Shown here: piece after piece, positions 30,880 through 58,400 of the stretch
Layout: each line of letters starts with the position of its first letter
How positions within the stretch are numbered: the first letter of the stretch is position 1
Assembly: GCF_016026235.1 (NCBI RefSeq)
Contig: NZ_CP065613.1
Strand: one strand, 5' to 3'
DNA length: 64,000 nucleotides
Origin: Escherichia coli
GTDB lineage: Bacteria > Pseudomonadota > Gammaproteobacteria > Enterobacterales > Enterobacteriaceae
The notes under the pieces: model-generated
Databases searched by the model: none
What the model saw: only the letters and a program-made list of their open reading frames with translations
What the model was told of the DNA's origin: nothing
Translations under genes and position numbers: made by a program

Positions 30880-31242
30880 GGGGCTGATTCTGGATTCGAC
30901 GGGATTTGCGAAACCCAAGGTGCATGCCGAGGGGCGGTTGGCCTCGTAAAAAGCCGCAAAAAATAGTCGCAAACGACGAAAACTACGCTTTAGCAGCTTA
31001 ATAACCTGCTTAGAGCCCTCTCTCCCTAGCCTCCGCTCTTAGGACGGGGATCAAGAGAGGTCAAACCCAAAAGAGATCGCGTGGAAGCCCTGCCTGGGGT
31101 TGAAGCGTTAAAACTTAATCAGGCTAGTTTGTTAGTGGCGTGTCCGTCCGCAGCTGGCAAGCGAATGTAAAGACTGACTAAGCATGTAGTACCGAGGACG
31201 TAGGAATTTCGGACGCGGGTTCAACTCCCGCCAGCTCCACCA
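30880..31242 (+). ncRNA. ssrA: tmRNA (SsrA), 363 nt
   Basis: Begins GGGGCTGATTCTGGATTCGACGGGATTTGCG, contains the tag-encoding segment GCAAACGACGAAAACTACGCTTTAGCAGCTTAA (ANDENYALAA) and ends with the tRNA-like GGTTCAACTCCCGCCAGCTCCACCA. Confidence 0.97.
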
Positions 31243-31445
31243 AAATTCTCCATCGGTGATTACCAGAGTCATCCGATGAAGTCCTAAGAGCCCGCACGGC
31301 GCAAGCCCTGCGGGCTTTTTTGTATCTGCAATTTGTCCCGCGAAGTCCGAAGAGAACTAATTAAATCCGAACCTTTTAGGCCCATTGATAGGCCCAACGA
31401 AAAGCTCTATTGTTTTCGTTGGGCCTAAACGCATGGAGACTCCCC

Positions 31446-32687
31446 ATGGCAAGAAAAACCAAGCCGTTAACCGATACGGAAATCAAAGCCGCCAAACCTA
31501 AAGATGCCGATTACCAGCTGTATGATGGTGACGGGCTTACTCTGTTAATCAAGTCCAGTGGTAGTAAGCTCTGGCAGTTCCGTTACTATCGACCTCTGAC
31601 AAAGCAGCGAACCAAGCAGAGCTTCGGTGCCTACCCTGCCGTCTCACTTTCTGATGCGCGTAAACTCAGAGCCGAATCTCGAGTTTTATTGGCAAAAGAT
31701 ATTGATCCTCAGGAACATCAGAAAGAACAGGTGAGGAATTCTCAAGAGGCCAAAACCAACACCTTCTTGTTAGTTGCCGAGCGTTGGTGGAATGTGAAGA
31801 AAGCCAGCGTGACAGAGGACTATGCCGACGATATCTGGCGCTCGCTTGAGAGAGATGTTTTTCCAGCAATCGGTGATATCAGTGTCACTGAGATTAAGGC
31901 TCATACTCTGGTTAAAGCAGTTCAGCCGGTTCAGGCTAGAGGTGCATTAGAAACTGTTCGCCGTCTTTGTCAGCGTATTAACGAAGTCATGATTTATGCG
32001 CAGAACACGGGCCTGATTGATGCGGTTCCCAGCGTAAATATCGGAAAAGCGTTCGAGAAGCCTCAGAAAAAGAACATGCCGAGCATCCGGCCTGATCAAC
32101 TGCCTCAACTGATGCAGACGATGCGAACAGCAAACATCAGCCAATCAACACGATGCCTGTTCATGTGGCAGCTTCTTACTATTACCCGTCCTGCCGAAGC
32201 CGCTGAAGCTCGATGGGATGAGATCGATTTTGAAGCTAAAGAATGGAAAATTCCTGCAGCTCGAATGAAGATGAACCGGGACCATACGGTTCCATTGTCT
32301 GATGGAGCTCTCGCTATTCTGGCAATGATGAAGTCACTCAGTGGTGGCCGAGAATTTATCTTTCCTAGTCGAATCAAACCAACCCAGCCGATGAATAGCC
32401 AAACAGTGAATGCAGCACTCAAACGTGCTGGATTGGGAGGCGTTCTCGTTTCTCATGGCTTGCGTTCTATCGCCAGTACCGCCCTTAATGAACAAGGCTT
32501 CCCACCTGATGTTATTGAAGCGGCGCTGGCTCATGTGGACAAAAATGAAGTACGTCGCGCTTACAATCGCAGCGATTATCTTGAGCAGAGACGCCCGATG
32601 ATGCAGTGGTGGGCAAACCTTATAAAAGCGGCAGATAGTATTCCTACCGTTTGTAACGAAGTAGCAGGTCTTAGATTGGTTGGGTAG
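31446..32687 (+). CDS. intA: P4/CP4-57-type tyrosine integrase (site-specific recombinase)
   Basis: ORF 31410..32687; start taken at MARKTKPLTDTEIKAAKPKDADYQLYDGDGL (413 aa); sits directly 3' of ssrA, the classic attachment site of CP4-57-like elements; C-terminal HGLRS and Y-containing catalytic region. Confidence 0.9.
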   Translation: MARKTKPLTDTEIKAAKPKDADYQLYDGDGLTLLIKSSGSKLWQFRYYRPLTKQRTKQSFGAYPAVSLSDARKLRAESRVLLAKDIDPQEHQKEQVRNSQEAKTNTFLLVAERWWNVKKASVTEDYADDIWRSLERDVFPAIGDISVTEIKAHTLVKAVQPVQARGALETVRRLCQRINEVMIYAQNTGLIDAVPSVNIGKAFEKPQKKNMPSIRPDQLPQLMQTMRTANISQSTRCLFMWQLLTITRPAEAAEARWDEIDFEAKEWKIPAARMKMNRDHTVPLSDGALAILAMMKSLSGGREFIFPSRIKPTQPMNSQTVNAALKRAGLGGVLVSHGLRSIASTALNEQGFPPDVIEAALAHVDKNEVRRAYNRSDYLEQRRPMMQWWANLIKAADSIPTVCNEVAGLRLVG

Positions 32688-35883: not shown

Positions 35884-35927
35884 GAGTAATATTCATATCC
35901 TTTTACTTTATCTATAACTGACATCAC

Positions 35928-35976
35928 TTATAAGTTATAAGTTATAAGTTATAAGTTATAAGTTATAAGTTATAAG
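35928..35976. repeat. perfect tandem heptanucleotide repeat (TTATAAG)x7
   Basis: 7 exact head-to-tail copies read directly from the sequence, in the 120-bp gap between the stop of the 482 aa gene and the start of the 565 aa gene. Confidence 0.95.
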
Positions 35977-36002
35977 TTCCCCTTATGAATTAAGAAATAA
36001 CA

Positions 36003-40400: not shown

Positions 40401-41875
40401 CTGCGACCCGAATGTTTCAATTCTGATGTAGCATAAATAACGTGAAGAGGATGGCCATTAGTTTTCTTACGAAGAGCGGATGCTGCACTCTGCAGTTGTT
40501 CTTCAATTTGTTCTTCACTTTCAAAACCAGTTGTAAGCCAGCCTTCTTGAACTGTTCTACGTAGATAAGAAAGTACTGCACTCTCAGACATTGCAGGCAA
40601 TGTATGCCACTCAGATTTTGGTGCAAAGGCGAGCAAATCCGCTGGCAACTGTTCGTCATTTACCGGTTGAGTGCCGACGAGCAGTACCATATTTTCCGGG
40701 CAGGGAATTACCTGACAGAAAAGGTCATCTAGTGGTCGTTTATCCTCAGCGTTGATACGCCAGACATGATCCAAACCATCAAGAATGAGCACAAATGGCT
40801 TTCCCAGTACTTTGTAGTGGGCAGCACATGCCTCCAATTGTGTATGTAAGCCTCCACCAGTTTTCGGGACATCCTCGTGAAACTGTTGGATCTGCGCCAG
40901 AATGGATTGCTCGACAATGTAGCTATTAACCCGGTCGCGGCCTCGCTCGGTTGTCGACAGAAAATAGTGATGGCGAACCGTTGGGATACCTTTTTCTGCA
41001 AGCGTGTCGCACAGTGCGCTCAGGTAAGTACTCTTTCCGCGTCCTGGTGGACCAGTCAGCACAATTGCCTTTCCGGTAGCATTAATTGTGCTCTGGACAA
41101 ATTCTTGATGGAATATTTCATCAGGAACCTCATAACCTTCTGGAACAACAAAATCCTCTGGCAAAGGAGCTGGAGGTGAAGCTCGCAAGATGGTTCCAAC
41201 CTCTGCCAGTTTAATCCAGCCATCCGGCGCAGGGAGATTTTTTTGCGTTGCCCAATTCAGAGCCACATATTTTAGATTAGCGATTCCCTCTGGCGTACCA
41301 TGCAGTCGAAGGCGAGCATCAACTTCATGCTCCAATGCAAGATAGCCCTTATCGCTGTGTCGAATACATAATTGTCTGAAGAAAAGTTTGCATTCCTCAA
41401 CGCCGCCGAGTTCAACTTCTACCAAGGTGCGCTGAGGTTCTGGGATCTTAGAAGGATCAATCCGGTCTCGTTCCAGACAAACCTCAATAGCAGCATCTGG
41501 TCGGCGATTCGTTATGAGCGAAATTTCGCCAATACGCACTGGATCAAGTTGTTTGAAAGCATCGAACCATTTGCGTAGCATCGATCTCGACCGCTCTGTC
41601 TTGCCCGTTTTCTCCAGCATCCAATCCCAAGATAGAAGATGCGTCTCAGAATCTGGGGTGAACTTGATCTGCTGAAGGTCAACGAAGCCATCACTTCGTT
41701 CGATGACGATATCATCTAGTCCCTGTGGTGCTTCGTTTTCATTATCACATTCAAATTTCACGCGGCTATAGCGCGTCGGCGCATCAAGCCAATCGCACAG
41801 GACCTTAAGGCCCTGGCGATTTTGATAAATATAACCAGCTGCAGTGATGGCGGTTTTCTTAATATCTTCACTCAT
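37448..41875 (-). CDS. STAND-class P-loop NTPase (NACHT-like) with N-terminal nuclease-like domain and long C-terminal helical region; candidate anti-phage sensor/effector
   Basis: 1475 aa; Walker A VLTGPPGRGKST, Walker B FVLILDGLDHV (hhhhDGLD, NACHT-type); N-terminal ~250 aa contain ...GLDDIVIERSDGFVDLQQIKF (D...QxK, restriction-endonuclease-fold-like); C-terminal ~1000 aa helix-rich with no enzymatic motif. Confidence 0.8.
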   Translation of the reverse strand: MSEDIKKTAITAAGYIYQNRQGLKVLCDWLDAPTRYSRVKFECDNENEAPQGLDDIVIERSDGFVDLQQIKFTPDSETHLLSWDWMLEKTGKTERSRSMLRKWFDAFKQLDPVRIGEISLITNRRPDAAIEVCLERDRIDPSKIPEPQRTLVEVELGGVEECKLFFRQLCIRHSDKGYLALEHEVDARLRLHGTPEGIANLKYVALNWATQKNLPAPDGWIKLAEVGTILRASPPAPLPEDFVVPEGYEVPDEIFHQEFVQSTINATGKAIVLTGPPGRGKSTYLSALCDTLAEKGIPTVRHHYFLSTTERGRDRVNSYIVEQSILAQIQQFHEDVPKTGGGLHTQLEACAAHYKVLGKPFVLILDGLDHVWRINAEDKRPLDDLFCQVIPCPENMVLLVGTQPVNDEQLPADLLAFAPKSEWHTLPAMSESAVLSYLRRTVQEGWLTTGFESEEQIEEQLQSAASALRKKTNGHPLHVIYATSELKHSGRRLSSWDIEQLKGDLSQDARFYYASLWERLAPSQKDTLRLICAFTFFWPKTAFSEIATKIKAVEPDVDKVEHLLHSSVAGLKVFHESLAVFVRATDDYESRINELMPVIADWLEHQAPTSLRVNWLWTVQAKLGNPNNLITGLTRDWIMSRLKEGYSEALFEILLSEALSAALETANFSDAYRLAHLKARMVDGSQFQMQDSDLARLISFTLTLTSEESVIRESIASRHETDILHVVALGLALLSRGDIIQAEICGEEAFHRFRALCQFSNKYNSRAGSDELLFLASAFTQLGVIADTSENLAWLVDKNSPDIWLPRVQMLIQKGNLDDLMLLAASLPDGQKKNIISDACIRAAAVAGVVVTEREDFDELVRTPFVAAIEVALIKTSTPSSQPIPVNWISDSYYKHKDNLATLTHHWLFGAVHLNLCMIAEGQTNFEHIKAPMYEDREDITDYLNVLSGIGAQIAQRWWCGEFINFHELYELLEPVESRRFRQSYFRKSATADFQAALHRIACDIYIGSVLLSGTSAVVLSQSTIDAALQCAWFDSASFRTQYASGSLIRMADEAAITFIGAQRLLLDADIQNETSVHLQIPLQLCAIAISHQLNSEARELCTQTWELTTGYGHRKDPTLSNTVDAIAYLVDVVPKEACRLLAKIAPQIHHVLDYTDGKGTRHVLAEADRLLAKLKPSALVIKFEEHTCVGDWALAESSMQAYIKQGIIEEWPLDALMRTGLHPEIRDTLQQLVEDGCTTASERLRILEEHNGWDIGCLQRHENSSSDADNKPYEGDVTVFRPEQLEDLLKVLEPYYKERPKLLRTWYQHWESQKQGRNLLVELDKILFAKNNKWMREALHLSEFAFQTKRRLSGLTAAWKYLVHAQIRNGGWIGYMENVDVTCKRLDLVVQNYPQRCDEFVAVTTYNMFDEPVSSRLAPSEVMVYFYVKQNRIDEAVKFTETMVNCVIEDTRTLPLEPPCWMSKLLEPIAQEVK

Positions 41876-41879
41876 AGCA

Positions 41880-44800
41880 TCAAGGTATGTTTAGTTCGGT
41901 TTTGATCCAAGTGTCCAAAGTGTCTACACGTACAAACTGGGTCGGAACAGGATATGGCGGATGAACCATCCAGTAGTACACATCGCGGCTTACATAGAGT
42001 TCAATATTCCTTAAAGGAACACTCTCTGGCTGTGGCCACTGGAGCAGTTCAAGCAACCTTGAACGGTGAGTTTCGAGAAATTTTCTGCGGTCTAAAATAC
42101 GACTGAATTGTCCTGCCCTGTCATTCTCTGCCTTGCCAAATATCCGATCACGAAGACGACGGCTATCTTTCATTGTAAATGGCGGCTGGTTGTACTTACA
42201 CTCTACTGTCACGAGCAAATTGCTTTCCGGCCAGTATGCAAAAACATCGAAATCACCAACGTCATCAAACTTCTCTTCCCGGAATCTTCTAAAGAAATCA
42301 ATACCTCGCTGAACATAAGGTGTATGCCTGCGGAATATTTCCTCTGTACGAAGCTCGAGACGCTTTTCAATACTCTCCTTAACCTCGCGAATGACTGGCT
42401 TAACATGAGGCCAATCAAATTCCGCAGGCAAATAACCGTCTCGTACCGCCGACATCCAAATGTACATTGCCCGGCTTGCCGACTCTGCCCCCCAACGCAA
42501 ATCGGCACCATCAATTACCAGCGGCTTGATAGTGTATCGATCGATTCGCTTATTCCGCTCCCAATATGGAATATCTCCTTCATCGATATCCCTTCCAACG
42601 AGCCTACGAACTCCTACTTCCGAAAGAGTCAGAAAAGCAACAATCTTTTGGGCCTCAGAATAGTCAAGCCTATCAATGCTATCAGCCAACCCTCGCGCAA
42701 GGCGATCAGGTGCTGCAGCATAAGACAAGGAAAGTTCGTTCCCGAATCCATATCGTTGAGCTTGCGATAACACAGCGAGAACAGTGAGCATATTCTGAAG
42801 CTCGAACCCCAAATCGGTGATAAAAGCTTTTTTGAGTTTCTCTGAAGCCAGCAACCCCTCTGGCTCTCCTTCCACCGCATCCTTGTCATTTGTGCCAAGC
42901 CCCAACCTGGACTTCGCATACTCCTTTGCAAAGGTAGCCTCACGATCACCAAAATCTGTCGAATAGAAAACTTCTGGAATATATGAGTCGTCGATCTCAA
43001 CACCACCCACATCTATACCATTGTGAAGGGTATCACTGGCACCAGTCAGCACCATGAACCAATCAACCAAGCCAACTAATTCTCGTAGTACATCCTCTGT
43101 AACTCTATCTACACCATTTGAAGATAAATTGACGGTCTTCTCTAGTAGATATCGATAATGGCGGGCCTTATCACCGAATTCTTTGCGTGCATGTTCTATC
43201 GCATCAAGTCTGTCATACTCAACTTCATGAGCAAGACTCAAACGGGCTCGTTGGATTCTAGTCCTCTCAGTAACAAGGAGGGCATCGTGTTGCTCGATGA
43301 ATGCCTGCAGAAGCTGATGCCTATCAAATGCTGCAAGTCGATTCTCAATGTGAAGACGCATGCGAGCACTGGAAGGATCAATCCTGGCCTTGGCATCTGA
43401 CAGTTCATACCTGCCAGGAATAAACCCAAGCCCCATGATTTCTGCGGCCAGTTTTCTACGGGCAAGCTTGTAATCGGTAGGCGAAGGAATTATAGGGTAT
43501 ACATAGTCGGGGACATCAATATTACGGGTCATGACTTTTAAATGATAACGAGCCGCTTGCGACGCTATATGAGTAAATCGTTGAGCAAATTCATCAGGCA
43601 TCTGCAAACCAAGTACTGCATGACATTTTTCGAGCGTTTCCAGTAAGCAACGAACCTCGAATGATCCATCCTTGGAAAGATTTAATCCAGCAAGCACTGC
43701 ACGTGTATCAACTTGAACGTGAAATACATCGGGGTTGTGGGAATCCGGGATGACTGAAGTCACCACGTGTTTAAATTCGTCTAAAGAAGAAGGACTCTCT
43801 TCAGCTTTAACCAGACTAGATGGTTCAGGGGAGCACGTAAACAAAACATGCGGCTGCCTAAATAGAGAAATATCAGACATCATTTTTCTGCAGCGATAGC
43901 TACAGTCGGCCAGAAGTTGGGCAAAAAGGTCTATCAGACGTCCATCTTCAAAGCGTAATTCTTTGGTTATTTCTATTAATGTTTGAACGGTACAGGAACC
44001 AATCGATGTTGAGTATGCCATCGCTTTGTGATGACGCGATTCAAGTCGAACGACACCTTCAGTTGAAGAACTCAACGTCCATCCGATAGAGCTGTCTGGA
44101 AATACCTTGGGTGCACGAGACCAGAATTCTGTCAATATCTTGAAGCGCCAAGAAGTCCCCCAGTGAGGGTCTAGCCCAATGAAGTTAGGTGCAATCGCAC
44201 CTTCGACAAGCACACCATGCATGTCTTTGAATGATGCAAACAGGTCTACTGTTCCACGGGAAAATGGGCTGAGCGTCCCCTCTTGAGCATCTGTAAATTT
44301 CCAATAACTTTCTAATTCTTCCAGATCGTTGAGACTATCAAAAATCGTGATGAAATCCGCTAATGGAAACAAACGAGTTGGCTTTGAGGGGAGATTGATG
44401 GAATTAAACGCAGTACCCGCGAGTGTAACGACAATAACGATGTGAAGCTCATCGACGCTAGGTTCTGCACCAACTCTAGATAGAGAAAGGAAACGTCCAT
44501 CATCAAGACGGAAGAAAATCGGCGATCCACGACTCACCTTGGCGTATATGCTTTCCGCTGCGTTTGACAGGCGGTCATTAGATGTATGGTCACATGTGCA
44601 AATGAGATATATCCCAGAATTACCCAGTATAATACAACTGATAGGCAGGTCTTTGCAGGCGGTGCCGTCAACATACAGAGTCAAAGGCCCTATAAGGGTT
44701 CTTTGGAATCGCTCAGCGACAAACTCTGCAAGTTTCCTGTGCGTAGAGGGGCTAATCCCGTTCAGATTTTTGTTAGCCCAATGGTCAATAATGAGACCCG

Positions 44801-45662
44801 GTGCACTGCGTACTGACATTGGTATCCATACCCTATCCATCTCGACAGCAAGGAAAGGTAGCGCCATGCCTTGCATCACTGCATTTCCGAACGCATCCGG
44901 TTTCAGCGGTGCTTTGAAAGTGCCAACACGAGTATCGAACGTACACCCTGCTTTCTTTCGGCGGTTCGCTAGCTCATTGCCAAGTTGTTGAAGCAAAGAC
45001 TTGCAAGTCAACCAGAAGTCTTCAGTAGCTAGTTCAACATCAGCACATTGGGCCTCGGTGTTGACAGAGAGCATCAACTCAGGAATCGATTCGATGATCT
45101 GCGCTTGCAGCGCAATGGCAAGATCCATATGGGCTTGTGCTTCTGGAATATGAGCATAGGTAATGCGAAATGCTTCTACGAAGTCAGACATTCTCTCAAT
45201 GCAACTCCCGTAGAACATAGGGACGAAGTCTTGACCAAGCCGTACTTTGATTTGCCCCCAATCAGCCTCGGGGGAAAAATCCTCAAGCATTGGGAATTCA
45301 GGCCATGATGCGTATAATTCTTTTGTAAATACTTTAAAATCTACATAGCTATCAATCGATATACCTACCTGAGACTCAAATGGCAGCTCTAAAAGGACAC
45401 ACCAAGCAAAAATATGCTTTATGGGGCTACCTGTATTGGCTGGCCAGAGTTCGGAAGTAAATAATGCAACTGCTACGTCGAGGGTTTTGTATCGGCGAAA
45501 TAAATTCTGGGTGGCTTCCAGATGCTTACAAAAGTATGTGTCTTCACCTACCCCATTCGTAAACAATTCACGATATCTGGACATATCGTGTATCAAAGAA
45601 TCATAATCAACCTTTTGCTCTGTTAGTTTTCTTTCCCGCTTTTCACGTGACTTCCTACCCAC
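41880..45662 (-). CDS. large protein (1260 aa) with C-terminal PD-(D/E)xK-like nuclease motif; first gene of the STAND operon
   Basis: GTG start preceded by GGGAGGA Shine-Dalgarno; no Walker A found on reading; C-terminus has GDFDVFAYWPESNLLVTVECKY (D-x15-ExK); stop lies 4 nt before the start of the STAND gene. Confidence 0.75.
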   Translation of the reverse strand: MGRKSREKRERKLTEQKVDYDSLIHDMSRYRELFTNGVGEDTYFCKHLEATQNLFRRYKTLDVAVALFTSELWPANTGSPIKHIFAWCVLLELPFESQVGISIDSYVDFKVFTKELYASWPEFPMLEDFSPEADWGQIKVRLGQDFVPMFYGSCIERMSDFVEAFRITYAHIPEAQAHMDLAIALQAQIIESIPELMLSVNTEAQCADVELATEDFWLTCKSLLQQLGNELANRRKKAGCTFDTRVGTFKAPLKPDAFGNAVMQGMALPFLAVEMDRVWIPMSVRSAPGLIIDHWANKNLNGISPSTHRKLAEFVAERFQRTLIGPLTLYVDGTACKDLPISCIILGNSGIYLICTCDHTSNDRLSNAAESIYAKVSRGSPIFFRLDDGRFLSLSRVGAEPSVDELHIVIVVTLAGTAFNSINLPSKPTRLFPLADFITIFDSLNDLEELESYWKFTDAQEGTLSPFSRGTVDLFASFKDMHGVLVEGAIAPNFIGLDPHWGTSWRFKILTEFWSRAPKVFPDSSIGWTLSSSTEGVVRLESRHHKAMAYSTSIGSCTVQTLIEITKELRFEDGRLIDLFAQLLADCSYRCRKMMSDISLFRQPHVLFTCSPEPSSLVKAEESPSSLDEFKHVVTSVIPDSHNPDVFHVQVDTRAVLAGLNLSKDGSFEVRCLLETLEKCHAVLGLQMPDEFAQRFTHIASQAARYHLKVMTRNIDVPDYVYPIIPSPTDYKLARRKLAAEIMGLGFIPGRYELSDAKARIDPSSARMRLHIENRLAAFDRHQLLQAFIEQHDALLVTERTRIQRARLSLAHEVEYDRLDAIEHARKEFGDKARHYRYLLEKTVNLSSNGVDRVTEDVLRELVGLVDWFMVLTGASDTLHNGIDVGGVEIDDSYIPEVFYSTDFGDREATFAKEYAKSRLGLGTNDKDAVEGEPEGLLASEKLKKAFITDLGFELQNMLTVLAVLSQAQRYGFGNELSLSYAAAPDRLARGLADSIDRLDYSEAQKIVAFLTLSEVGVRRLVGRDIDEGDIPYWERNKRIDRYTIKPLVIDGADLRWGAESASRAMYIWMSAVRDGYLPAEFDWPHVKPVIREVKESIEKRLELRTEEIFRRHTPYVQRGIDFFRRFREEKFDDVGDFDVFAYWPESNLLVTVECKYNQPPFTMKDSRRLRDRIFGKAENDRAGQFSRILDRRKFLETHRSRLLELLQWPQPESVPLRNIELYVSRDVYYWMVHPPYPVPTQFVRVDTLDTWIKTELNIP

Positions 45663-45959: not shown

Positions 45960-46195
45960 CTTTCACATTTTCATCCTCCGCTATCCGCCCTGATCAGTTA
46001 CCACAGCTAATGCAGACAATGCGAAATGCCAACATTATTTTGCCTACTCGATGCTTGTTCATGTGGCAACTTCTAACTATCTCACGACCCGCAGAAGCGG
46101 CAGAAGCTCGTTGGGATGAGATCGATTTTGAAGCTAAAGAATGGAAAATTCCTGCAGCTCGAATGAAGATGAACCGGGACCATACGGTTCCGCTA
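45960..46195 (+). pseudogene. truncated second copy of a P4-type integrase (internal fragment only)
   Basis: Encodes ...IRPDQLPQLMQTMRNANIILPTRCLFMWQLLTISRPAEAAEARWDEIDFEAKEWKIPAARMKMNRDHTVPL, matching residues ~215-285 of the intact integrase at 31446..32687; 80 bp (46112..46191) are identical to 32214..32293; no N- or C-terminal part present. Confidence 0.85.
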
Positions 46196-49932: not shown

Positions 49933-50847
49933 ATGGCCTTTTTTCATTCAGAGGCCGATATGAAACATCCCTCGGGTTATACCCTTATCCGTCGCCATCT
50001 GCGGCGTTATCCACACGCGCTACGCCAGCATTTGCTGCAGGAGCTCAACCGACTCGTTACGTATGAACCGGTGATTGGCATCATGGGAAAAACCGGCGTC
50101 GGCAAATCCTCGCTGTGCAATGCACTGTTCCGGAGCGAAGTCTGTACTGTCAATGCCGTGGAAGCCTGCACCCGTCAGCCACAGCGTGTCCGGCTGCGCT
50201 TCGGCAGCCATTATCTGACGCTGGTCGACTTGCCCGGAGTGGGCGAGTCTGTTACCCGCGACGGTGAATACCGTGAGCTGTATCGTGACCTCATGCCACA
50301 GCTCGATATGGTGCTGTGGGTGCTCAAGGCCGATGACCGCGCATTTGCGGTGGAAGAGCAATTTTATCAGGACGTGTTCGCGCAGTTCAGAGGACCGATA
50401 CCGCCAGTGCTGTGGATACTCAACCAAGTGGACAAAACCGAACCTGCCGAGCAGTGGCGATGGTTGTCGGCTCAACCCTCGGCGTTACAGGCGGAGCGTA
50501 TTGCGCAGAAACGGCAGGCTGTGGCACGTCAGTTGCAGATAGCAGAAATAGATATTCTGCCAGTCTCTGTCCGGGGGCGTTACCGGCTGCCGCGCCTGGT
50601 GGAGACCATGATTACCCGCCTCCCAAAGCAAGCCCGCAGTCCACTTGTGCCTCATCTGCAGAACCGGTATCGCACTGATACCGTTATCAATACCGCCAGC
50701 AGCAGCTTTGGCGATGCCGTGGTAGAGGTGATTGATAACATCATTGACCTCGCACCGCTGCCGCAGGTGGCCCGCACAGCACTGCATGCGGTGACCCACA
50801 CCGTCGCCCGCGCGGCAGGCTCCCTGTGGGGATTTTTCTTCGGCTAG
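49933..50847 (+). CDS. yfjP: YfjP/YkfA/YeeP-family GTPase (Era-like small GTPase of CP4-type prophages)
   Basis: G1 motif GIMGKTGVGKSS, G3 DLPGVGES; alternative start at MKHPSGYT (49960). Confidence 0.85.
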   Translation: MAFFHSEADMKHPSGYTLIRRHLRRYPHALRQHLLQELNRLVTYEPVIGIMGKTGVGKSSLCNALFRSEVCTVNAVEACTRQPQRVRLRFGSHYLTLVDLPGVGESVTRDGEYRELYRDLMPQLDMVLWVLKADDRAFAVEEQFYQDVFAQFRGPIPPVLWILNQVDKTEPAEQWRWLSAQPSALQAERIAQKRQAVARQLQIAEIDILPVSVRGRYRLPRLVETMITRLPKQARSPLVPHLQNRYRTDTVINTASSSFGDAVVEVIDNIIDLAPLPQVARTALHAVTHTVARAAGSLWGFFFG

Positions 50848-51059: not shown

Positions 51060-51218
51060 ATGCCGTTAATTCTGTTATGGGGCGGTCTGGCCCTGTTGCT
51101 GGGTATCGTGGCTTCCGCTAATGGACGCTCGTTCTGGGGCTGGTTCATTCTCGGTCTGATTATCGACCCGATACTGGCGGGGCTGCTGTACTGGCTTATT
51201 GCAAAGGACCGCACATGA
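51060..51218 (+). CDS. small hydrophobic membrane peptide (52 aa), unannotated-type small ORF
   Basis: ATG..TGA: MPLILLWGGLALLLGIVASANGRSFWGWFILGLIIDPILAGLLYWLIAKDRT; two predicted TM helices; below the ORF-track size cutoff. Confidence 0.4.
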   Translation: MPLILLWGGLALLLGIVASANGRSFWGWFILGLIIDPILAGLLYWLIAKDRT

Positions 51219-51343
51219 AAACATTTCTGCGTCTGTTCGGTAAGTTCACCCGCTGGTACATCACCCTCATTATCTTTATGGCCTGCCTACTGCTCATTAT
51301 CACCACCCTGGGCAATATGGCTGGCTTCTGACAGGACACTCCA

Positions 51344-51808
51344 ATGAAAAATAAACTGGTTATTTCATTTTTACTGGCTTCAGTGCTGACGCCTTCTGTC
51401 TCGCATGCGTTTGGCAACCCTGATAGCTGGGTAAGTGGCTATGCGCAGGGAACGTCTGAATACACCATCCTCGGTAAAGGGCAATCACAACTTTATCTGG
51501 CCTGCGATAGTTCCGGCTCACAGCCAGCGACCATTATCTTCACTGACGTGAACGGCCAACAGGTCAGGATGGACAGCGGCCAGACACTTGCCATGAGAAT
51601 TGATAACGCTGAAGAAGTGAATATCAGCGAAAGCGAGTCTCATGTGGGATCTGACAATGTGATGTGGGCATGGAACAAATTACGCACCGGCAAACGTGTT
51701 GTGGTTTCAGGTAGCGGGGTAAAACCTGCCACTTTCACTTTAGCGGGGGCTGCTGCAGTTCTTCCTGCCTTCGGTGACAACGGCTGTGTGCCCGGATTTG
51801 CACTGTAG
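51344..51808 (+). CDS. secreted hypothetical protein (signal peptide)
   Basis: 154 aa, MKNKLVISFLLASVLTPSVSHAFG signal sequence. Confidence 0.7.
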   Translation: MKNKLVISFLLASVLTPSVSHAFGNPDSWVSGYAQGTSEYTILGKGQSQLYLACDSSGSQPATIIFTDVNGQQVRMDSGQTLAMRIDNAEEVNISESESHVGSDNVMWAWNKLRTGKRVVVSGSGVKPATFTLAGAAAVLPAFGDNGCVPGFAL

Positions 51809-51842
51809 CTCTGCCTCACTCTTACAGATTAAAGGAAATTTA

Positions 51843-52184
51843 ATGAAGAAAATTATTACAGTCGCAGCACTCAGTCTGCTGTCATTTTCTTCGCTGGCCG
51901 GGTCTTCACCTGTTAGCGTCAGCGTCAGCCCGGGAAGCTACAGTCACTATTCATCGATTCGGGTTACATCAAAAGTCGATTCGATTGTGATTAAACAACT
52001 CATTGTCAACAGGGGAAACTGCCAGGATGCAGAATTCGCCAGCCCCTGGAAACCGGTACGTCTGGGATTTGGCGGTGCTGTATCCCATGAATTTACCGGC
52101 AAGGGGCTGATGGTTCCCTGTAATGTACTGGAAGTAGTTGTCCAGACAAGCGAAGGCGCATGGCAGTTTGATTTTGACAGCTGA
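51843..52184 (+). CDS. secreted hypothetical protein (signal peptide)
   Basis: Start taken at MKKIITVAALSLLSFSSLAGSSPVSVS (113 aa); the track ORF 51774.. extends upstream in frame. Confidence 0.7.
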   Translation: MKKIITVAALSLLSFSSLAGSSPVSVSVSPGSYSHYSSIRVTSKVDSIVIKQLIVNRGNCQDAEFASPWKPVRLGFGGAVSHEFTGKGLMVPCNVLEVVVQTSEGAWQFDFDS

Positions 52185-52275
52185 CACCGCGCGCTTTTCC
52201 ACCTTTCTTTTCTATCTGAACGCCCTGCTCAAACGAGCAGGGCGTTTTCTTTTGCCTCTCTTAAAGGAATTACTT

Positions 52276-53097
52276 ATGAGATTAGCCAGCCGCTTTGGCC
52301 GTATAAACCAGATACGCCGTGACCGTCCTCTGACCCATGAAGAGCTGATGAGTCATGTTCCCAGTGTATTCGGGAGTGACAAACATGAATCGCGTTCAGA
52401 CCGTTACACCTACATTCCGACCATCACCATCCTCGAAAGCCTGCAGCGCGAGGGTTTTCAGCCGTTCTTTGCCTGCCAGACAAAGGTTCGGGACCAGAGC
52501 AAACGGGAGCACACCAAACACATGCTTCGCCTGCGTCGCGCCGGGCAGCTAAACGGTCATCAGGTACCGGAAATCATTTTACTCAACAGCCATGACGGCT
52601 CATCAAGCTACCAGATGCTGCCGGGGTTGTTTCGTGGCGTCTGTACTAACGGTCTGGTCTGCGGTCAGTCATTCGGAGAGGTGCGGGTACCACATAAAGG
52701 TAATGTCGTTGAGAAGGTAATTGAAGGGGCTTACGAAGTTCTCGGGGTATTTGACTGGGTGGATGAAAAGCGTGATGCCATGGCGTCACTTTTACTTCCG
52801 CCACCAGCACAGCACGCTCTGGCGAATGCCGCGCTGAAATATCGCTTTGGTGAGGACCACCAGCCGGTCACGGTATCGCAGTTGCTGACCTCACGTCGCC
52901 GGGAGGATTGCAGCGATGACCTGTGGACCGTCTACCAGCGCGTGCAGGAGAACCTGATGAAAGGGGGATTGTCAGGACGAACCGCACAGGGGAAAAGCAG
53001 TCGCACCCGTGCCGTTACCGGTATTAATGGCGACGTGAAGCTCAATCGTGCCCTGTGGGTAATGGCAGAGAATATGCTCGAGTTTTTCGGGCGTTAA
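52276..53097 (+). CDS. yfjQ: DUF932-family protein (YafZ/YfjQ-like)
   Basis: Start at MRLASRFGRINQIRRDRPLTHEELMSHVPSVFGSDKHESRSDRYTYIPTI (273 aa), typical of CP4-type prophage DUF932 proteins. Confidence 0.8.
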   Translation: MRLASRFGRINQIRRDRPLTHEELMSHVPSVFGSDKHESRSDRYTYIPTITILESLQREGFQPFFACQTKVRDQSKREHTKHMLRLRRAGQLNGHQVPEIILLNSHDGSSSYQMLPGLFRGVCTNGLVCGQSFGEVRVPHKGNVVEKVIEGAYEVLGVFDWVDEKRDAMASLLLPPPAQHALANAALKYRFGEDHQPVTVSQLLTSRRREDCSDDLWTVYQRVQENLMKGGLSGRTAQGKSSRTRAVTGINGDVKLNRALWVMAENMLEFFGR

Positions 53098-53127: not shown

Positions 53128-53571
53128 ATGGATACACAAAACCTTCAGTTCGCTGAGCAGACAGCAATTACTGCCTCTGTGGTACCTGACGAGTTACGCA
53201 TCGGCTTCTGGCCACAGCACTTTGGCTCCATCCCGCAATGGATAACCCTTGAGCCCAGAATTTTTGCCTGGATGGACCGTCTGTGTACCGATTATCACGG
53301 TGGTATCTGGCACTTTTCGACGCTCAGCAACGGCGGCGCTTTTATGGCCCCTGAGTCAGAGCAGGATGAGAAGTGGAAATTGTTCAACAGTATGAATGGC
53401 AACGGCGCGGAACTTACTGGTGAAGCTGCAGGGATAGTCGCCTGTCTGATGGTATACAGCCATCATGCCTGCCGTATCGAATGTGACGCGATGACAGAGC
53501 ACTATTATCGCTTACGAGACTTCGCGCTAAACCATCCAGAGTGCAGTGCCATTATGTATCTAATCGACTGA
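53128..53571 (+). CDS. yfjX: antirestriction protein (KlcA/ArdB-like; YfjX family)
   Basis: 147 aa MDTQNLQFAEQTAITASVVPDELRIGFWPQHFGSIPQWITLEP... Confidence 0.8.
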   Translation: MDTQNLQFAEQTAITASVVPDELRIGFWPQHFGSIPQWITLEPRIFAWMDRLCTDYHGGIWHFSTLSNGGAFMAPESEQDEKWKLFNSMNGNGAELTGEAAGIVACLMVYSHHACRIECDAMTEHYYRLRDFALNHPECSAIMYLID

Positions 53572-53583
53572 GGGATACCTGAC

Positions 53584-54126
53584 ATGAATACCGTATTATG
53601 CCCGGAGTCTTCACAGCGCGAACTATTTCCGCTGACGGTTATGGCACAACATGGTTACCTGCTCCCTGCGACTTCCGGATTGACACCCTATGCCCAACGG
53701 ACCATTCGCCGGGCTATCAATCTGCTGGATAAATATCTGCGCCAGCCCGGCATATCCTTTACATCAAGTATTGCTGCCCGTGACTGGCTTCGGTTACAGC
53801 TGGCAGGACAAGAACGGGAAGTGTTTATGGTGCTCTATCTCGATAATCAGCACCGTTTACTGGAGAGCGAAACGCTGTTTGCCGGTTCGGTTTACCATGT
53901 CCAGGTCCATCCCCGTGAAGTGGTAAAGTCTGCACTTCGCTTCAATGCTGCCGCTGTCGTATTGGCGCACAACCATCCATCCGGCGATCCGGAGCCCAGC
54001 AAAGTCGATCGGCAGATGACTGACAAACTGAAGGAGGTGCTGGGACTGGTTGATGTGAAAACGCTCGATCACCTGGTTGTCGGTCAGGATGGCATTGTGT
54101 CGTTTGCAGAACGAGGCTGGATATGA
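53584..54126 (+). CDS. yfjY: RadC-like JAB-domain protein (YfjY/YeeS family)
   Basis: 180 aa; JAMM motif region HNHPSGDPEPSKVDRQMT. Confidence 0.85.
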   Translation: MNTVLCPESSQRELFPLTVMAQHGYLLPATSGLTPYAQRTIRRAINLLDKYLRQPGISFTSSIAARDWLRLQLAGQEREVFMVLYLDNQHRLLESETLFAGSVYHVQVHPREVVKSALRFNAAAVVLAHNHPSGDPEPSKVDRQMTDKLKEVLGLVDVKTLDHLVVGQDGIVSFAERGWI

Positions 54127-54344
54127 AAATCATCAGTAAGCGCCAGGCCATGGCTCTGTACCGGCAACATCCGGGCTCCCGACTGTTTCGCTTCTGTACC
54201 GGCAAATATAAATGGACTGGCAGTATCTGCCATTATGCTGGCTGGGAAGTTCAGGACATACGCAACGTTCTGGCCGTCTTTGCTGAGCGCCGTCAGGATC
54301 GTAATGGTCCCTATGTCATTCTTCGAAGTGTCACTCTTAATTAA
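54123..54344 (+). CDS. ypjJ: DUF987-family protein (YpjJ/YeeT-like)
   Basis: 73 aa MKIISKRQAMALYRQHPGSRLFRFCTGKYKWTGSICHYAGWEV...; start overlaps the stop of the RadC-like gene. Confidence 0.8.
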   Translation: MKIISKRQAMALYRQHPGSRLFRFCTGKYKWTGSICHYAGWEVQDIRNVLAVFAERRQDRNGPYVILRSVTLN

Positions 54345-54369
54345 TCCTTCCCTTTAATCAGGAACAATA

Positions 54370-54735
54370 ATGAACAATCACTCAGTATTCGGTACCAAAC
54401 CGGAGAATCTTACCTGCCAGGAGTGGGGACTAAAGCGCACGATCACCCCCTGTTTTGGCGCTCGTCTGGTGCAGGAAGGTAACCGGGTGCATTTTCTCGC
54501 TGACAGGGCCGGATTCAACGGTGCTTTCATCGACGATAACGCGCTACGCCTGGATCTGGCCTTTCCGTTGATACTCAAGCAACTGGAGCTGATGCTCACC
54601 AGCGGAGAACTCTCTCCCCGGCATGAGCACTGCGTCACGCTATATCACAATGGACTGACTTGCGAAGCCGATACACTCGGCTCCTGTGGCTATGTCTACA
54701 TCGCTATTTATCCCGACCAGCCTGAACCCCATTAA
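54370..54735 (+). CDS. yfjZ: type IV toxin-antitoxin antitoxin (CbeA/YfjZ/YagB family)
   Basis: 121 aa ...GARLVQEGNRVHFLADRAGFNG...PRHEHCVTLYHNGLTCEADTLGSCGYVYIAIYP. Confidence 0.85.
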   Translation: MNNHSVFGTKPENLTCQEWGLKRTITPCFGARLVQEGNRVHFLADRAGFNGAFIDDNALRLDLAFPLILKQLELMLTSGELSPRHEHCVTLYHNGLTCEADTLGSCGYVYIAIYPDQPEPH

Positions 54736-54772
54736 CTCTACGCTTATCTCTTAAACTCATAGAGCAAACATC

Positions 54773-55102
54773 ATGCAAACCTTATCATCACACCCGACAA
54801 GGGCGACTCAGCCCTGTCTGTCACCCGTTGAAACCTGGCAACGGCTGCTGACTCATCTGTTATCGCAGCACTATGGCCTCACGCTGAATGACACACCGTT
54901 CAGTAATGAAACCACCATACGTGAAGATATAGATGCCGGAGTATCGCTCAGCGATGCGGTGAACTTTCTGGTCGAAAAATACGAACTGGTTCGAATCGAC
55001 CGAAAGGGATTTTCGTGGCAAGAACAAACCCCGTATATTTCCGTAGTGGATATTCTGCGAGCAAGGCGCTCTACCGGCTTGCTAAAAACTAATGTGAAAT
55101 AA
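54773..55102 (+). CDS. ypjF: type IV toxin-antitoxin toxin (CbtA/YpjF/YkfI family; cytoskeleton-targeting)
   Basis: 109 aa ...[73 protein letters not shown]. Confidence 0.85.
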
Positions 55103-55460
55103 ACGCTTAAATACAGAGCAGACTTAAGGAAAGCAAAATGCTAATCTCACAGACGAAGAGACTCCTGCTGTAACCTCCCCTCCCTGCAAAATACCTGACA
55201 TTTTCTTTTAGGACCAACAATGGGACCAAAATGAAAATTGAACTGAAGGTTATCAGCCATTAAACAACAAGTTACAAACCCAATTCAGACTCCGCCAGCC
55301 AATCATGATTGGACGGTGTAAGGACAACACCAACAAAAACAGGAAGTTAGCAGTCTCAGCAGGACACCGACCAGACGGTGAGGAGACAAAAAAGATACGC
55401 AAAGGAGCCGCGGCTCCTGGCGACATGAAAGCCCACAGATGTGGGCTTTTTCGTTGATGG

Positions 55461-58400
55461 TCAGAACGACCAGTTCACACCAGCCACCGCGTTCCACGGG
55501 GATTCCACATCGGCACCGTTGCTATACCCCACCCCGAGATGCCCGCTTAACGTACTGCTGAATGAGGCTTTAATACCTGCCTGGTATATTCCACGTCTGC
55601 CCGACAAATCATTGACGAAATTACCGTCATTATTCACCTTCACCCGGTTATCATCGACAAATTCTTTGCGCACAGCCGCCTTCAGCCACGGCTCAACTTC
55701 CATACCGTTTCCCAGACGCATGTTGTAACTCAGCGTTGCGCCCAGTTCACGATATATACTGCGGGTATCGACTGATTTCGATTTCATGCCATTGGATAAA
55801 TGATATTCGGGGTTATCAGCGGTGAACCCCGTTAACGATGCATACGGCGTCAGGTTCCAGTTACCATCGGTAAATCGCATCCCGGTTTCAATGTGCCCCC
55901 CCAGCCCGTTGCTGTGATAACTGCCGTTGGCGGCTCCACCGCTGCTCATTTTACCGGCTACGTTACTTTCAAAACGGTTCAGCTTCACGATACCGTCCAG
56001 ATAGAAACCACTTTCATGTTCCCAACTGGCATAGCCGCCCAGAGAATAACTGCCCACACTGCCATGTCCTCCACGATCAAAACCGATATGTGAATGGGAA
56101 TAACCCATAAAAGCGCCCAGCGTCGCAATCCCCTCAGGAATATCATTACGGCTGTCGATCCCCACTGTCATTCCGGTCAGCGTCTGCTCAAACCCGGCAC
56201 CCGCATCGGTGGTGACATTATTACGGGTGTTATACGTCGCCCCCCAGACATTATTGTTGTGTGGACTCGCTTTCATTATGTTCAACCGCTCGCGAATACT
56301 GTTTAGCTCAGCATCAAATACCAACGGTAATGTTGCAGCCATATTGAGTACGGCTGCCGTAGAAGGCGTGATGCGTTTCTCCGGAACGGGTGTCGGCGTT
56401 GGATCGGGAGTCGGGTCTGGTTTCGGATCCGGTTTTGGGTCTGGTTTTGGATCCGGCTTCGGATTTGGGTTGGGATTTGGGTTGGGATCCGGGTTGGGTT
56501 TGACATCATTGGTCAGGTTCCAGTTGCTGTTGCCGTCGCTTTTCAGGACATACTCATAGGTCCCAAGATCAACGAAACCGCCGGTATTGCCCAGCGTAAA
56601 CGAAGCATCCCCTCCCCCTGTTTTCACCAGCGTCATCGCATCGTCAGACTGAGGGCTGACGCCGGTATCCTGAACAAAGATTTTAAAATTACCAGTGGCG
56701 TTGTTGTTGACGACCAGTTGATCGCCCCGGGAGCCAGCAACGTTGGTATGCAGGTAGAAATTACCGCTGCCGGAAAGTTCATTGGTTGTCAGCGTATTGT
56801 AGATACCGTTAGTTGTGGCAGGCGCTGCTGTTTGTGCTGATAAATAAACATCACCGTCGTTGAGTAGCAAACTGTTTACTCTATATTCGCAGTTGCTGGT
56901 ACCTGCACAGGAATTATTGCTGTTAAGCCAGACACTGCCCCGGCTGGCAGCCGTCAGGTCGGCAAGCGTGGTATCGACGCCATTTCCCAGAGTTAATGTC
57001 GCGCTATCGGTAATCCGGACCGCCCCTTCAAGTTTTACTGGCGTAACATTATCCCGTGGCGTGATTAACGACAGGCTTCCTGTCGCGCCACTGACCGATG
57101 CATCCGCCAGCGTACCTGCGTAGACGATTGCCGTCCCGCCAGCGACCTGTAGATCTTCTGCCCGGGCCAGAGCCTGAAACTCATCTTTTGACCGCCCAAG
57201 GGTATATTGCCCACCAGAGTTAACCTTTGTGGCGGAGTCCTGACCCAGGTTTTGCATTGCACCACCCTTGCCAACCGTGGAGTCATGGGCTTCGGTACCT
57301 GCTAATACCAATAAATTACCACCATTTTCCAGCAACATATTGGTCGCTAAATTTCCGGCAATGGAAAAGGTGCCGTACTGGTGAGTACCGCTGATTTCAA
57401 TACCGTTAGCCGTGCTCGTCTGGAGAGCGGCACCGCTGTTCTGGACGATATCTGTCGCTTTGCCATTATCGTTGACTGTCAGCGTTCCGCCTTCATTGAT
57501 CGTTGTTTTTATTGCTTCTCCGTTAGCTGAAACTGTTTGTATTCCGCCGTCGTTAATTGTTGTCTCATTCGCCACACCCTCGACGATTTGTTCACCGCCG
57601 GTGAGCGTCGTGCCTGTCGCAGTGGCTTTTGTTTTGACGATCTCCCGTCCGCCCGTATTGACCTGTGTTTTGTCAGAAGAGGTGTCTGACTCCACGGTTA
57701 ACACGCCGCCATTTGCCAGCTGGATATTGTTCGCCGCATCCTGCTCAATGCTGAACGCGACGCCATCAGCGCGTGTCCCTGTGACCCGCGTCGCCCTGGT
57801 GGTTGCAACCAACGCGCCCTGGCTACTCTGCTGTATCCCCGTTGCGCTGCCTTTCTCCCGCACATCGAGTGTGCCGCCGTCATTAAGCACCGAGTTTTCA
57901 GCCAGACCGCCCTCATTAACTACCTGTGAACCCCCATTAATAATGGAACCTTCCGCTGTCCCGTTTGCCATAATTTGTTGTAGGCCAGAGACGATATCGG
58001 TATTGATTGCCTTACCATAATTCTGAACGGTTTGCGTGCCACCATTGATGTGTGTTTTCTCTGTTGACCCACCATCAACAATTTGTTCACCACTTTCGAT
58101 ATTTGCTTCAGTGGCTAAACCATATACCGTTTGCTTGCCACCTTTGATATTTGCTTTATCAGAAGTGGCACTGGCATATATTGTTTGGGTGCCAGCACTA
58201 TTGAGTACAGTGCCAACATCTTTTCCATAAACATCCATTTTGCCGTTGGCATTAATAATCGTGTCAACTGCCCGGGAACCAGTGACGACTGTTAATGAGC
58301 CAGCGTTTTCCAGCACTACATTTTTAGCTTCTGAATTCCTGATGTAGAAAGCATCACCATAACTGTTGGTTCCTTCGATAAGTGTTCCGGAGGTCGTGGA

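What the first reader, a model, noticed from the sequence alone, without database searches (positions are those of the whole stretch)
53128..55102. Compact anti-restriction / RadC-like / DUF987 / CbeA-CbtA module
Five co-oriented genes with short or overlapping junctions encode an ArdB/KlcA-like antirestriction protein, a RadC-like JAB protein, a DUF987 protein and a type IV toxin-antitoxin pair of the cytoskeleton-targeting CbtA/CbeA class. It is a known module, but its presence next to a putative defence operon means the island carries both an anti-defence gene and an addiction module.
Basis: established knowledge. Interest (0 to 1): 0.3.

Follow-up and report, generated by a model that had tools for sequence, protein, structure and literature searches.

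The report
Known ArdB–RadC–DUF987–CbeA/CbtA island operon
The five genes are real and correctly named: they are a diverged but intact copy of the well-known anti-restriction / RadC protease / DUF987 / CbeA-CbtA toxin-antitoxin operon that ends CP4-57-type islands inserted at the tmRNA gene of E. coli, so the finding is ordinary.

Summary
Observation confirmed. Window 53128-55102 (+) holds five intact co-oriented ORFs separated by 12, -4, 25 and 37 nt. Each matches one Pfam family over its full length: Antirestrict (ArdB/KlcA), RadC-JAB, DUF987, CbeA_antitoxin and CbtA_toxin (E 1e-35 to 3e-55).

The block is the last operon of a ~24-kb island inserted at ssrA, between the integrase and a degenerate attR next to ypjA. 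That is the position of K-12 yfjX(lfgA)-yfjY(lfgB)-ypjJ-yfjZ-ypjF. It is a different allele: 59-77% protein identity to the K-12 paralogues. The exact allele occurs in 9 of 5426 complete E. coli genomes, and its proteins are already named in RefSeq.

Functional residues are kept (JAMM motif; toxin F65), and dN/dS is 0.05-0.23.

- A DUF932 gene 30 nt upstream belongs to the same conserved array.
- DNA identity to K-12 jumps from ~70% to ~96-100% inside the last ~60 nt of the toxin gene, with a matching jump at the 3' end of intA. The island interior has therefore been exchanged.
- An integrase remnant lies between the NACHT "defence" operon and the module.

The "anti-defence" and "addiction" roles are inferred from relatives, not shown here. 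Already known; low interest.

The parts
30880..31242 (+). ssrA (tmRNA); its 3' end is the left attachment site of the island
   Evidence: ARAGORN and Rfam RF00023 at 292.8 bits; 3' end identical to K-12
31410..32687 (+). P4-type tyrosine integrase (intA-like)
   Evidence: Pfam Phage_integrase, Arm-DNA-bind_3 and Phage_int_M. It is 96.7% identical in DNA to K-12 up to position 32639, after which similarity is lost
52218..52247 (+). Strong terminator-like hairpin (13-bp stem, 8 G-C pairs, T-run) 28 nt before the DUF932 start. It is a possible attenuator or boundary of the transcription unit
   Evidence: sequence
52276..53097 (+). DUF932 gene (YfjQ/YafZ-like, 273 aa), 30 nt upstream of the anti-restriction gene. 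It is the sixth member of the conserved array
   Evidence: Pfam PF06067 at 1.1e-48; 78-79% identical to YfjQ/YafZ; same order and spacing in other genomes; dN/dS 0.05
53128..53571 (+). ArdB/KlcA-family anti-restriction protein (147 aa, pI 4.9)
   Evidence: PF03230 at 1.5e-35; PDB 2WJ9 ArdB 2.1e-69 (72% identity) and 2KMG KlcA 1.1e-24; dN/dS 0.10
53584..54126 (+). Short RadC-like JAB/JAMM protein (180 aa; YfjY/LfgB type, without the N-terminal part of canonical RadC)
   Evidence: PF04002 at 5.9e-43; PDB 2QLC 1.1e-22; E112, H129-N-H131, S139 and D142 invariant across the K-12 paralogues; NCBIfam RadC equivalog matched only over model positions 58-212 and below its cut-off
54123..54344 (+). DUF987 protein (73 aa, pI 10.4), overlapping the RadC stop by 4 nt (ATGA)
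54370..54735 (+). CbeA/YeeU/YfjZ-family type IV antitoxin (121 aa)
   Evidence: PF06154 at 6.2e-53; PDB 2INW, 2H28 (YeeU), 2EA9 and 2JN7 (YfjZ) at 1e-44 to 1e-49
54773..55102 (+). CbtA/YpjF-family toxin (109 aa)
   Evidence: PF06755 at 3e-55, profile positions 1-108 of 112; 77% identical to YpjF; F65 conserved and C15 as in YpjF/YkfI
55030..55060 (.). Recombination junction inside the 3' end of the toxin gene. DNA identity to K-12 CP4-57 is ~50-85% upstream and 90-100% downstream
   Evidence: 30-nt sliding identity; alignment; the left counterpart lies at ~32639 in intA
55284..55299 (+). Degenerate right attachment site (copy of the ssrA 3' end, the K-12 'psaA' remnant), 4 nt shorter than in K-12
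   Evidence: the K-12 annotation ends CP4-57 at this point

Best explanation
This is the terminal accessory operon of a CP4-57-type (P4-like) integrative island inserted at ssrA. It is a diverged allele of the K-12 yfjX(lfgA)-yfjY(lfgB)-ypjJ-yfjZ-ypjF operon, preceded by its usual DUF932 partner. Shown here: five (really six) intact, co-oriented, tightly packed genes of these families, at that locus, under purifying selection, with catalytic and target-contact residues kept. The working model below is inferred from characterised relatives. (1) The acidic ArdB/KlcA protein relieves type I restriction of the element's DNA. (2) The JAMM-motif RadC-like protein is a metalloprotease; K-12 LfgB cleaves the antitoxin/repressor MqsA. 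(3) DUF987 is a small basic partner, translationally coupled to RadC, with unknown activity. (4) The CbtA-type toxin binds FtsZ (through the F65 surface) and MreB and blocks division and elongation. The CbeA-type antitoxin counteracts it, reportedly by bundling the cytoskeletal polymers rather than by binding the toxin. Together the operon would help the island establish and persist. The conserved int and toxin ends also appear to have served as crossover points when the island interior was exchanged.
For: Families and boundaries. Solved relatives: ArdB 2WJ9 and KlcA 2KMG, YeeU and YfjZ, RadC JAB 2QLC. Locus: ssrA, integrase, attR remnant and ypjA. This matches the K-12 map, in which the operon is the last unit of CP4-57. 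Identity to K-12 paralogues is 56-77%. Conserved residues. dN/dS is 0.05-0.23 for all six genes against two other alleles. The same six-gene array with the same spacing is present in another E. coli with different cargo and in contigs next to a fimbrial operon that carry a toxin named from Serratia marcescens. Close relatives (>=90%) occur in Klebsiella, Citrobacter, Enterobacter and Serratia. [quoted passage not shown] Interior exchange.
Against: No activity was tested for these particular proteins, and the RadC-like protein is only 59% identical to LfgB. The K-12 promoter region with the MqsA site (245-252 bp upstream of lfgA) has no counterpart here, because the anti-restriction gene starts 30 nt after DUF932. 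K-12 regulation therefore cannot be transferred. No convincing sigma-70 promoter was found, and a strong terminator-like hairpin sits just before DUF932, so the transcription start is unknown. Aravind and colleagues argue that RadC-type JAB domains may act on nucleic acids rather than proteins (PMC5512222). An addiction role has not been shown for this TA family. The attR copy is eroded, so the island may no longer move. That would make entry functions vestigial, although purifying selection argues the genes are still used.
Confidence: 0.88

Rival explanations
1. Domesticated host stress module. The operon no longer serves the island. [quoted passage not shown]
For: K-12 data: lfgB deletion sensitises cells to H2O2, acid and heat, and LfgB degrades MqsA (PMC10846083). 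Deleting all three toxin genes lowers oxidative-stress resistance (PMC5371832). attR is eroded here, and all genes are under purifying selection.
Against: The MqsA-bound promoter region of K-12 is absent here. The RadC-like protein is only 59% identical to LfgB. The same array travels between genera and between chromosomal sites with different cargo, which fits an element-borne function better than a host-specific circuit.
Confidence: 0.2
2. Phage-defence toxin-antitoxin. The CbtA/CbeA pair, perhaps together with the JAB protease, is an abortive-infection system that belongs functionally with the neighbouring NACHT operon in a defence island.
For: The island carries a NACHT/STAND protein with PADLOC hits to Avs1b (4.4e-11) and to nuclease effectors. 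K-12 CP4-57 carries AbpAB and RnlAB at the equivalent place. Many TA systems defend against phage (general knowledge).
Against: None of the five proteins matches a PADLOC model, apart from a marginal JAB hit at E 0.006. I found no published phage-defence phenotype for CbtA-family toxins in the papers read. The module keeps constant company with an anti-restriction gene rather than with any one defence system.
Confidence: 0.07
3. Decaying remnant. The genes are leftovers of a dead prophage-like element and have no current function.
For: K-12 CP4-57 is called a cryptic prophage. The attR is degenerate, and an integrase fragment lies inside the island.
Against: All ORFs are intact with full-length profile coverage, the motifs are kept, dN/dS is 0.05-0.23, and gene spacing is identical across genera.
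Confidence: 0.03

Closest known systems
E. coli K-12 CP4-57 operon yfjX(lfgA)-yfjY(lfgB)-ypjJ-yfjZ-ypjF
   Same: It has the same five families in the same order, on the same strand relative to ssrA and ypjA. It is the last operon before attR, and the last ~60 nt of the toxin gene and the downstream flank are 96-100% identical.
   Different: Protein identity is only 59-77%. The RadC-like protein is 20 aa longer at the N-terminus and the antitoxin 16 aa longer. DUF932 is directly upstream here, whereas in K-12 yfjR...yfjW and ypjI lie between yfjQ and yfjX. The K-12 lfgA promoter/MqsA region is absent.
K-12 CP4-6 yafX-ykfG-ykfH-yafW-ykfI and CP4-44 yeeS-yeeT-cbeA-cbtA
   Same: These are paralogous arrays. 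DUF987 here is closest to YkfH (73%) and the antitoxin closest to CbeA (73%).
   Different: They sit at other attachment sites (thrW; CP4-44 has no integrase). CP4-44 lacks the anti-restriction gene and has an 88-nt antitoxin-toxin spacer (PMC5371832).
ArdB of PAI II CFT073 (PDB 2WJ9) and plasmid KlcA (PDB 2KMG)
   Same: Same family and length class. The protein is acidic and 72% identical to 2WJ9 over 134 residues.
   Different: KlcA is a plasmid leading-region protein and a more distant match (E 1e-24). Activity was not tested here.
Cargo hot spots of P4-like elements (K-12 CP4-57 carries AbpAB and RnlAB)
   Same: A conserved backbone (int, AlpA-like HTH, YfjI/DUF3987, YfjJ-like, GTPase, DUF932 and this operon) surrounds variable defence-like cargo: a NACHT operon here and an S8 peptidase plus AAA ATPase in strain Sx181-0-1.
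   Different: The module under study is backbone, not cargo.

Membership tests
ArdB/KlcA anti-restriction proteins (Pfam PF03230) | Full-length match to the family profile | tested here: met
   PF03230 at 1.5e-35, profile positions 2-92 of 92
ArdB/KlcA anti-restriction proteins (Pfam PF03230) | Sequence homology to the solved ArdB and KlcA structures | tested here: met
   2WJ9 at 2.1e-69 (72% identity) and 2KMG at 1.1e-24
ArdB/KlcA anti-restriction proteins (Pfam PF03230) | Small acidic protein (published members 134-157 aa, pI 4.6-5.05) | tested here: met
   147 aa, pI 4.86; published values in Table 1 of PMC2836571
ArdB/KlcA anti-restriction proteins (Pfam PF03230) | Alleviates type I restriction in vivo | not testable with these tools
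   Shown for YfjX, YafX and ArdB-CFT (PMC2836571), but not for this protein
RadC-like JAB/JAMM domain proteins (PF04002), prophage short form (YfjY/LfgB, YkfG, YeeS) | RadC JAB domain | tested here: met
   PF04002 at 5.9e-43, profile positions 2-121 of 121; PDB 2QLC at 1.1e-22
RadC-like JAB/JAMM domain proteins (PF04002), prophage short form (YfjY/LfgB, YkfG, YeeS) | JAMM metal-binding motif E...HxH...S..D | tested here: met
   E112, H129, H131, S139 and D142 are invariant with the three K-12 paralogues
RadC-like JAB/JAMM domain proteins (PF04002), prophage short form (YfjY/LfgB, YkfG, YeeS) | Canonical full-length RadC (equivalog PRK00024, with its N-terminal region) | tested here: not met
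   Scores 159.7 bits against a cut-off of 180 and matches only model positions 58-212. This is the short mobile-element form, not the housekeeping RadC/YicR
RadC-like JAB/JAMM domain proteins (PF04002), prophage short form (YfjY/LfgB, YkfG, YeeS) | Protease activity (LfgB cleaves MqsA) | not testable with these tools
   PMC10846083 concerns K-12 LfgB, which is 59% identical
DUF987 (PF06174) | Full-length profile match | tested here: met
   1e-34, profile positions 1-65 of 65; the family has no defined function
CbtA/CbeA type IV toxin-antitoxin system | Toxin of PF06755 with the antitoxin of PF06154 immediately upstream on the same strand | tested here: met
   3e-55 and 6.2e-53, with a 37-nt spacer
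CbtA/CbeA type IV toxin-antitoxin system | FtsZ-contact residue F65 conserved | tested here: met
   F65 is invariant in the alignment with YpjF, YkfI and CbtA; its role comes from PMC5624674
CbtA/CbeA type IV toxin-antitoxin system | Toxin blocks FtsZ and MreB; antitoxin rescues without binding the toxin | not testable with these tools
   Needs expression, microscopy and interaction assays
CP4-57-type (P4-like) integrative island at ssrA | Inserted at the 3' end of ssrA, with a P4-type integrase next to attL and an ssrA-derived repeat at the far end | tested here: met
   The attR repeat is degenerate (16 nt with two gaps) and 4 nt shorter than in K-12

The most novel reading that the evidence does not exclude
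The six-gene array from DUF932 to CbtA may be an entry and establishment cassette of islands that are mobilised as single-stranded DNA. The backbone also encodes a YfjJ/inovirus-Gp2-like Rep protein and a DUF3987 protein. In this reading, ArdB blunts restriction, the JAB protease removes host repressors or antitoxins, CbtA briefly halts division, and the CbeA antitoxin may even travel through a conjugative T4SS, as reported for CbeA, YagB and YfjZ. Separately, the conserved 3' ends of the integrase and toxin genes may act as homology anchors that let related islands swap their whole interiors, defence cargo included, by two crossovers.
Probability: 0.15. Interest if true: 0.45.

Novelty: already known. 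Interest (0 to 1): 0.12.

Why it matters
It matters little on its own. The module is a textbook component of E. coli cryptic P4-like islands, and these exact proteins are already named in RefSeq. The value of the check is mainly bookkeeping. It fixes the right-hand boundary and type of the island that carries the NACHT operon. It shows that the module is backbone rather than cargo. It also documents a clean example of island-interior replacement, with crossovers inside intA and inside the toxin gene. This is relevant to how defence cargo is shuffled between related islands at one attachment site.

Tried and rejected

2. DUF987 hits to very large multi-repeat proteins (P0136, P0220) turned out to be PKD-repeat proteins. 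The predicted fold is alpha+beta, not an Ig-like sandwich, so I treat these as scores inflated by repeats.

3. Gene neighbourhoods of distant DUF987 genes showed no RadC, CbeA or CbtA, even at E<=1. DUF987 is therefore not obligatorily tied to the TA pair.

4. PADLOC gave no defence-system model for the five proteins.

5. Rfam found no RNA family inside or beside the module.

6. The promoter scan found no site above shuffled expectation and none placed to drive the operon.

7. A search for an internal ssrA-type att copy, which would prove two tandem islands, found none at <=3 mismatches.

8. NCBIfam has no models for four of the five proteins.

9. The PDB holds no solved CbtA-family toxin.

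Full report
OBSERVATION

The stretch 53128-55102 contains five + strand ORFs with ATG starts: 53128-53571 (147 aa), 53584-54126 (180 aa), 54123-54344 (73 aa), 54370-54735 (121 aa) and 54773-55102 (109 aa). The junctions are 12 nt, a 4-nt ATGA overlap, 25 nt and 37 nt.

Each product matches one Pfam family over its full length, at scores four to seven times the gathering cut-off:
- Antirestrict PF03230, 1.5e-35
- RadC PF04002, 5.9e-43
- DUF987 PF06174, 1e-34
- CbeA_antitoxin PF06154, 6.2e-53
- CbtA_toxin PF06755, 3e-55

WHAT IT IS

Sequence searches against solved structures agree with the family names.
- The first protein matches ArdB of E. coli CFT073 (2WJ9, 2.1e-69, 72% identity) and plasmid KlcA (2KMG, 1.1e-24). 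It is acidic (pI 4.86), like published ArdB proteins.
- The second matches a RadC JAB domain (2QLC, 1.1e-22) and keeps the JAMM residues E112, H129, H131, S139 and D142. It is the short mobile-element form: the NCBIfam equivalog for full-length RadC is matched only over model positions 58-212 and below its cut-off.
- The fourth matches YeeU/CbeA and YfjZ structures (1e-44 to 1e-49).
- The toxin has no solved relative. It aligns end to end with YpjF (77%), YkfI and CbtA, keeps F65 and has C15 as in YpjF and YkfI. According to Heller et al. (PMC5624674), the F65S substitution abolishes FtsZ binding in CbtA, YpjF and YkfI.

CONTEXT

The window holds ssrA at 30880-31242, followed by a P4-type integrase at 31410-32687. 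Next comes a four-gene minus-strand operon that includes a 1475-aa NACHT protein (34186-45662).

Downstream of that operon, in order, are:
- an integrase fragment (45983-46195)
- YfjJ-like and DUF3987/YfjI-like genes
- a GTPase (49951-50847)
- three small ORFs without Pfam hits
- a strong terminator-like hairpin (52218-52247)
- a DUF932 gene (52276-53097)
- the five genes
- a degenerate copy of the ssrA 3' end (55284-55299)
- the convergent ypjA autotransporter gene (55461-60176)

This is the layout of K-12 cryptic prophage CP4-57. There the operon yfjX(lfgA)-yfjY(lfgB)-ypjJ-yfjZ-ypjF is the last unit before the psaA att remnant and ypjA.

A DIVERGED ALLELE AND AN EXCHANGED INTERIOR

Protein identity to the K-12 paralogues is only 56-77%. 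The best K-12 match differs by gene: YfjX, YfjY, YkfH, CbeA and YpjF.

DNA similarity to K-12 is 96.7% from the left flank through ssrA and intA up to position 32639. It is then absent or about 65-76% through the island. It returns to 90-100% from about 55030-55060, which is inside the last ~60 nt of the toxin gene, and stays high through attR and ypjA. The whole island interior has therefore been replaced relative to K-12, with apparent crossovers at the 3' ends of the integrase and toxin genes.

Within the module, synonymous divergence against two other alleles is uneven: dS is 0.8-1.3 for the antitoxin and 0.2-0.3 for the toxin. This points to further mosaicism.

DISTRIBUTION

The block matches 1709 of 5426 complete E. 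coli genomes at some level, but only 9 at >=99%. The next best matches are about 87%. RefSeq annotates the five CDSs in those genomes as antirestriction protein, RadC family protein, DUF987 domain-containing protein, YeeU-family antitoxin and CbtA-family toxin.

The exact proteins occur on 27 to about 750 contigs: 621-753 for four of them and 27 for DUF987. Relatives at >=90% identity are named from Klebsiella, Citrobacter, Enterobacter, Serratia and others.

Strain Sx181-0-1 carries an 87% allele at the same ssrA/ypjA locus with different cargo, an S8 peptidase plus an AAA ATPase. Contigs carrying a toxin named from Serratia marcescens have the same six genes, DUF932 to CbtA, with the same spacing, next to a fimbrial operon. 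The conserved unit is thus six genes and is backbone, while the defence-like genes are variable cargo.

ARE THE GENES IN USE?

All six genes show dN/dS of 0.05-0.23 against both other alleles. All ORFs are intact and the functional residues are kept. This rules out simple decay.

HOW IT MOST LIKELY WORKS (inferred from relatives)

- ArdB-type proteins, including YfjX and YafX, relieve all four families of type I restriction in vivo (PMC2836571). R64 ArdB blocks a type I enzyme in vitro (PMC12429846).
- K-12 YfjY/LfgB is reported to be a protease that degrades MqsA and so derepresses rpoS. The five K-12 genes are described as one operon (PMC10846083). Others have argued that RadC-type JAB domains act on nucleic acids (PMC5512222).
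- YpjF is toxic and gives lemon-shaped cells, YfjZ rescues (PMC5371832), and YpjF binds FtsZ and MreB (PMC5624674).
- CbeA, YagB and YfjZ were found to be translocated through the F-plasmid T4SS (PMC11288057).

DUF987 remains without a function. Its family is small, with 163 clusters among 1.84 billion representatives. Its predicted fold is confident but has no relative in the PDB. Distant members sit in small-gene arrays of mobile elements without RadC or the TA pair.

WHAT CANNOT BE TRANSFERRED FROM K-12

The MqsA-bound promoter lies about 250 bp upstream of lfgA in K-12. Here the anti-restriction gene starts 30 nt after DUF932. The nearest upstream non-coding stretch holds a terminator-like hairpin only 28 nt before the DUF932 start. 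No promoter-like site stands out. The transcription start and regulation are unknown.

The island does carry a NACHT/STAND protein with weak-to-moderate PADLOC hits (Avs1b 4.4e-11, nuclease effectors 1e-7 to 3e-8). A defence reading is reasonable for that operon.

However, the operon ends 7.5 kb upstream of the module, on the other strand, and an integrase remnant lies between them. No internal att copy was found, so whether two elements fused is open. 'Anti-defence' rests on 72%-identical relatives. 'Addiction' has not been shown for this TA family.

VERDICT

The module is already known and already annotated. The modest additions are the sixth gene, the exact island boundary, the eroded attR, and the crossover points that show replacement of the island interior. 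Interest is low.

Noticed in passing
window 34186-45662 (minus strand): A four-gene operon of 1260, 1475, 497 and 565 aa. The 1475-aa protein has an N-terminal nuclease-like region (PADLOC effector, LmuA and SAVED_PDDEXK hits) plus a NACHT NTPase (Avs1b 4.4e-11). The other three proteins have no Pfam or PADLOC hit. The region is AT-rich in part (GC 0.35-0.38 at 33-36 kb). It is probably a STAND-type defence system with uncharacterised partners.
   Followed up: partly
window 45983-46195: An internal ~210-nt fragment of an intA-like integrase gene (82% identical to K-12 intA; RefSeq calls it a partial recombinase). It lies between the NACHT operon and the island backbone, and no ssrA-type att copy is nearby. 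This suggests that the island is a composite or recombinant of two P4-like elements.
   Followed up: partly
window 55284-55299: The right-end copy of the ssrA 3' end is 4 nt shorter than the K-12 psaA remnant: TTCAGACTCCGCCAG|CCAATC here against ...GCCAGCCCACCAATC in K-12. The same deletion is present in strain 2017.01.04CC. Whether it prevents excision is unknown.
   Followed up: partly
window 32639 and 55030-55060: Similarity to K-12 CP4-57 ends 48 nt before the integrase stop and resumes about 60 nt before the toxin stop. This is a two-crossover replacement of the entire island interior.
   Followed up: yes
window 54370-55102: Synonymous divergence between alleles is three to six times higher in the antitoxin (dS 0.8-1.3) than in the adjacent toxin (0.2-0.3). 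The antitoxin is closest to CbeA while the toxin is closest to YpjF, so the TA pair itself looks mosaic.
   Followed up: partly
window 51060-52184: Three small + strand ORFs (52, 154 and 113 aa) lie between the GTPase and DUF932, and the two longer ones have no Pfam hit. They occupy the place of yfjR-ypjK-yfjS-yfjT in K-12 and of the WYL, YfjS_YafY, IrmA and DUF905 genes in other islands. The 154-aa and 113-aa products begin with signal-peptide-like sequences.
   Followed up: no
window 52218-52247: A 13-bp G+C-rich hairpin followed by a T-run lies only 28 nt upstream of the DUF932 start codon. It is either a terminator for the preceding small ORFs or an attenuator for the six-gene array.
   Followed up: no
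proteins P0103, P0084, P0086 (DUF987 representatives): Some DUF987 family members are tandem duplications (159 aa, two domains). Others are longer ORFs with DUF987 at the C-terminus, and one of these has a DUF932 N-terminal fragment. These are probably deletion or frameshift fusions within the same array.
   Followed up: partly
window 55461-60176 (minus strand): An intact 1571-aa YpjA/EhaD-type AIDA-like autotransporter gene converges on the toxin gene. A hairpin at about 55425-55452 between them could terminate both transcripts.
   Followed up: no
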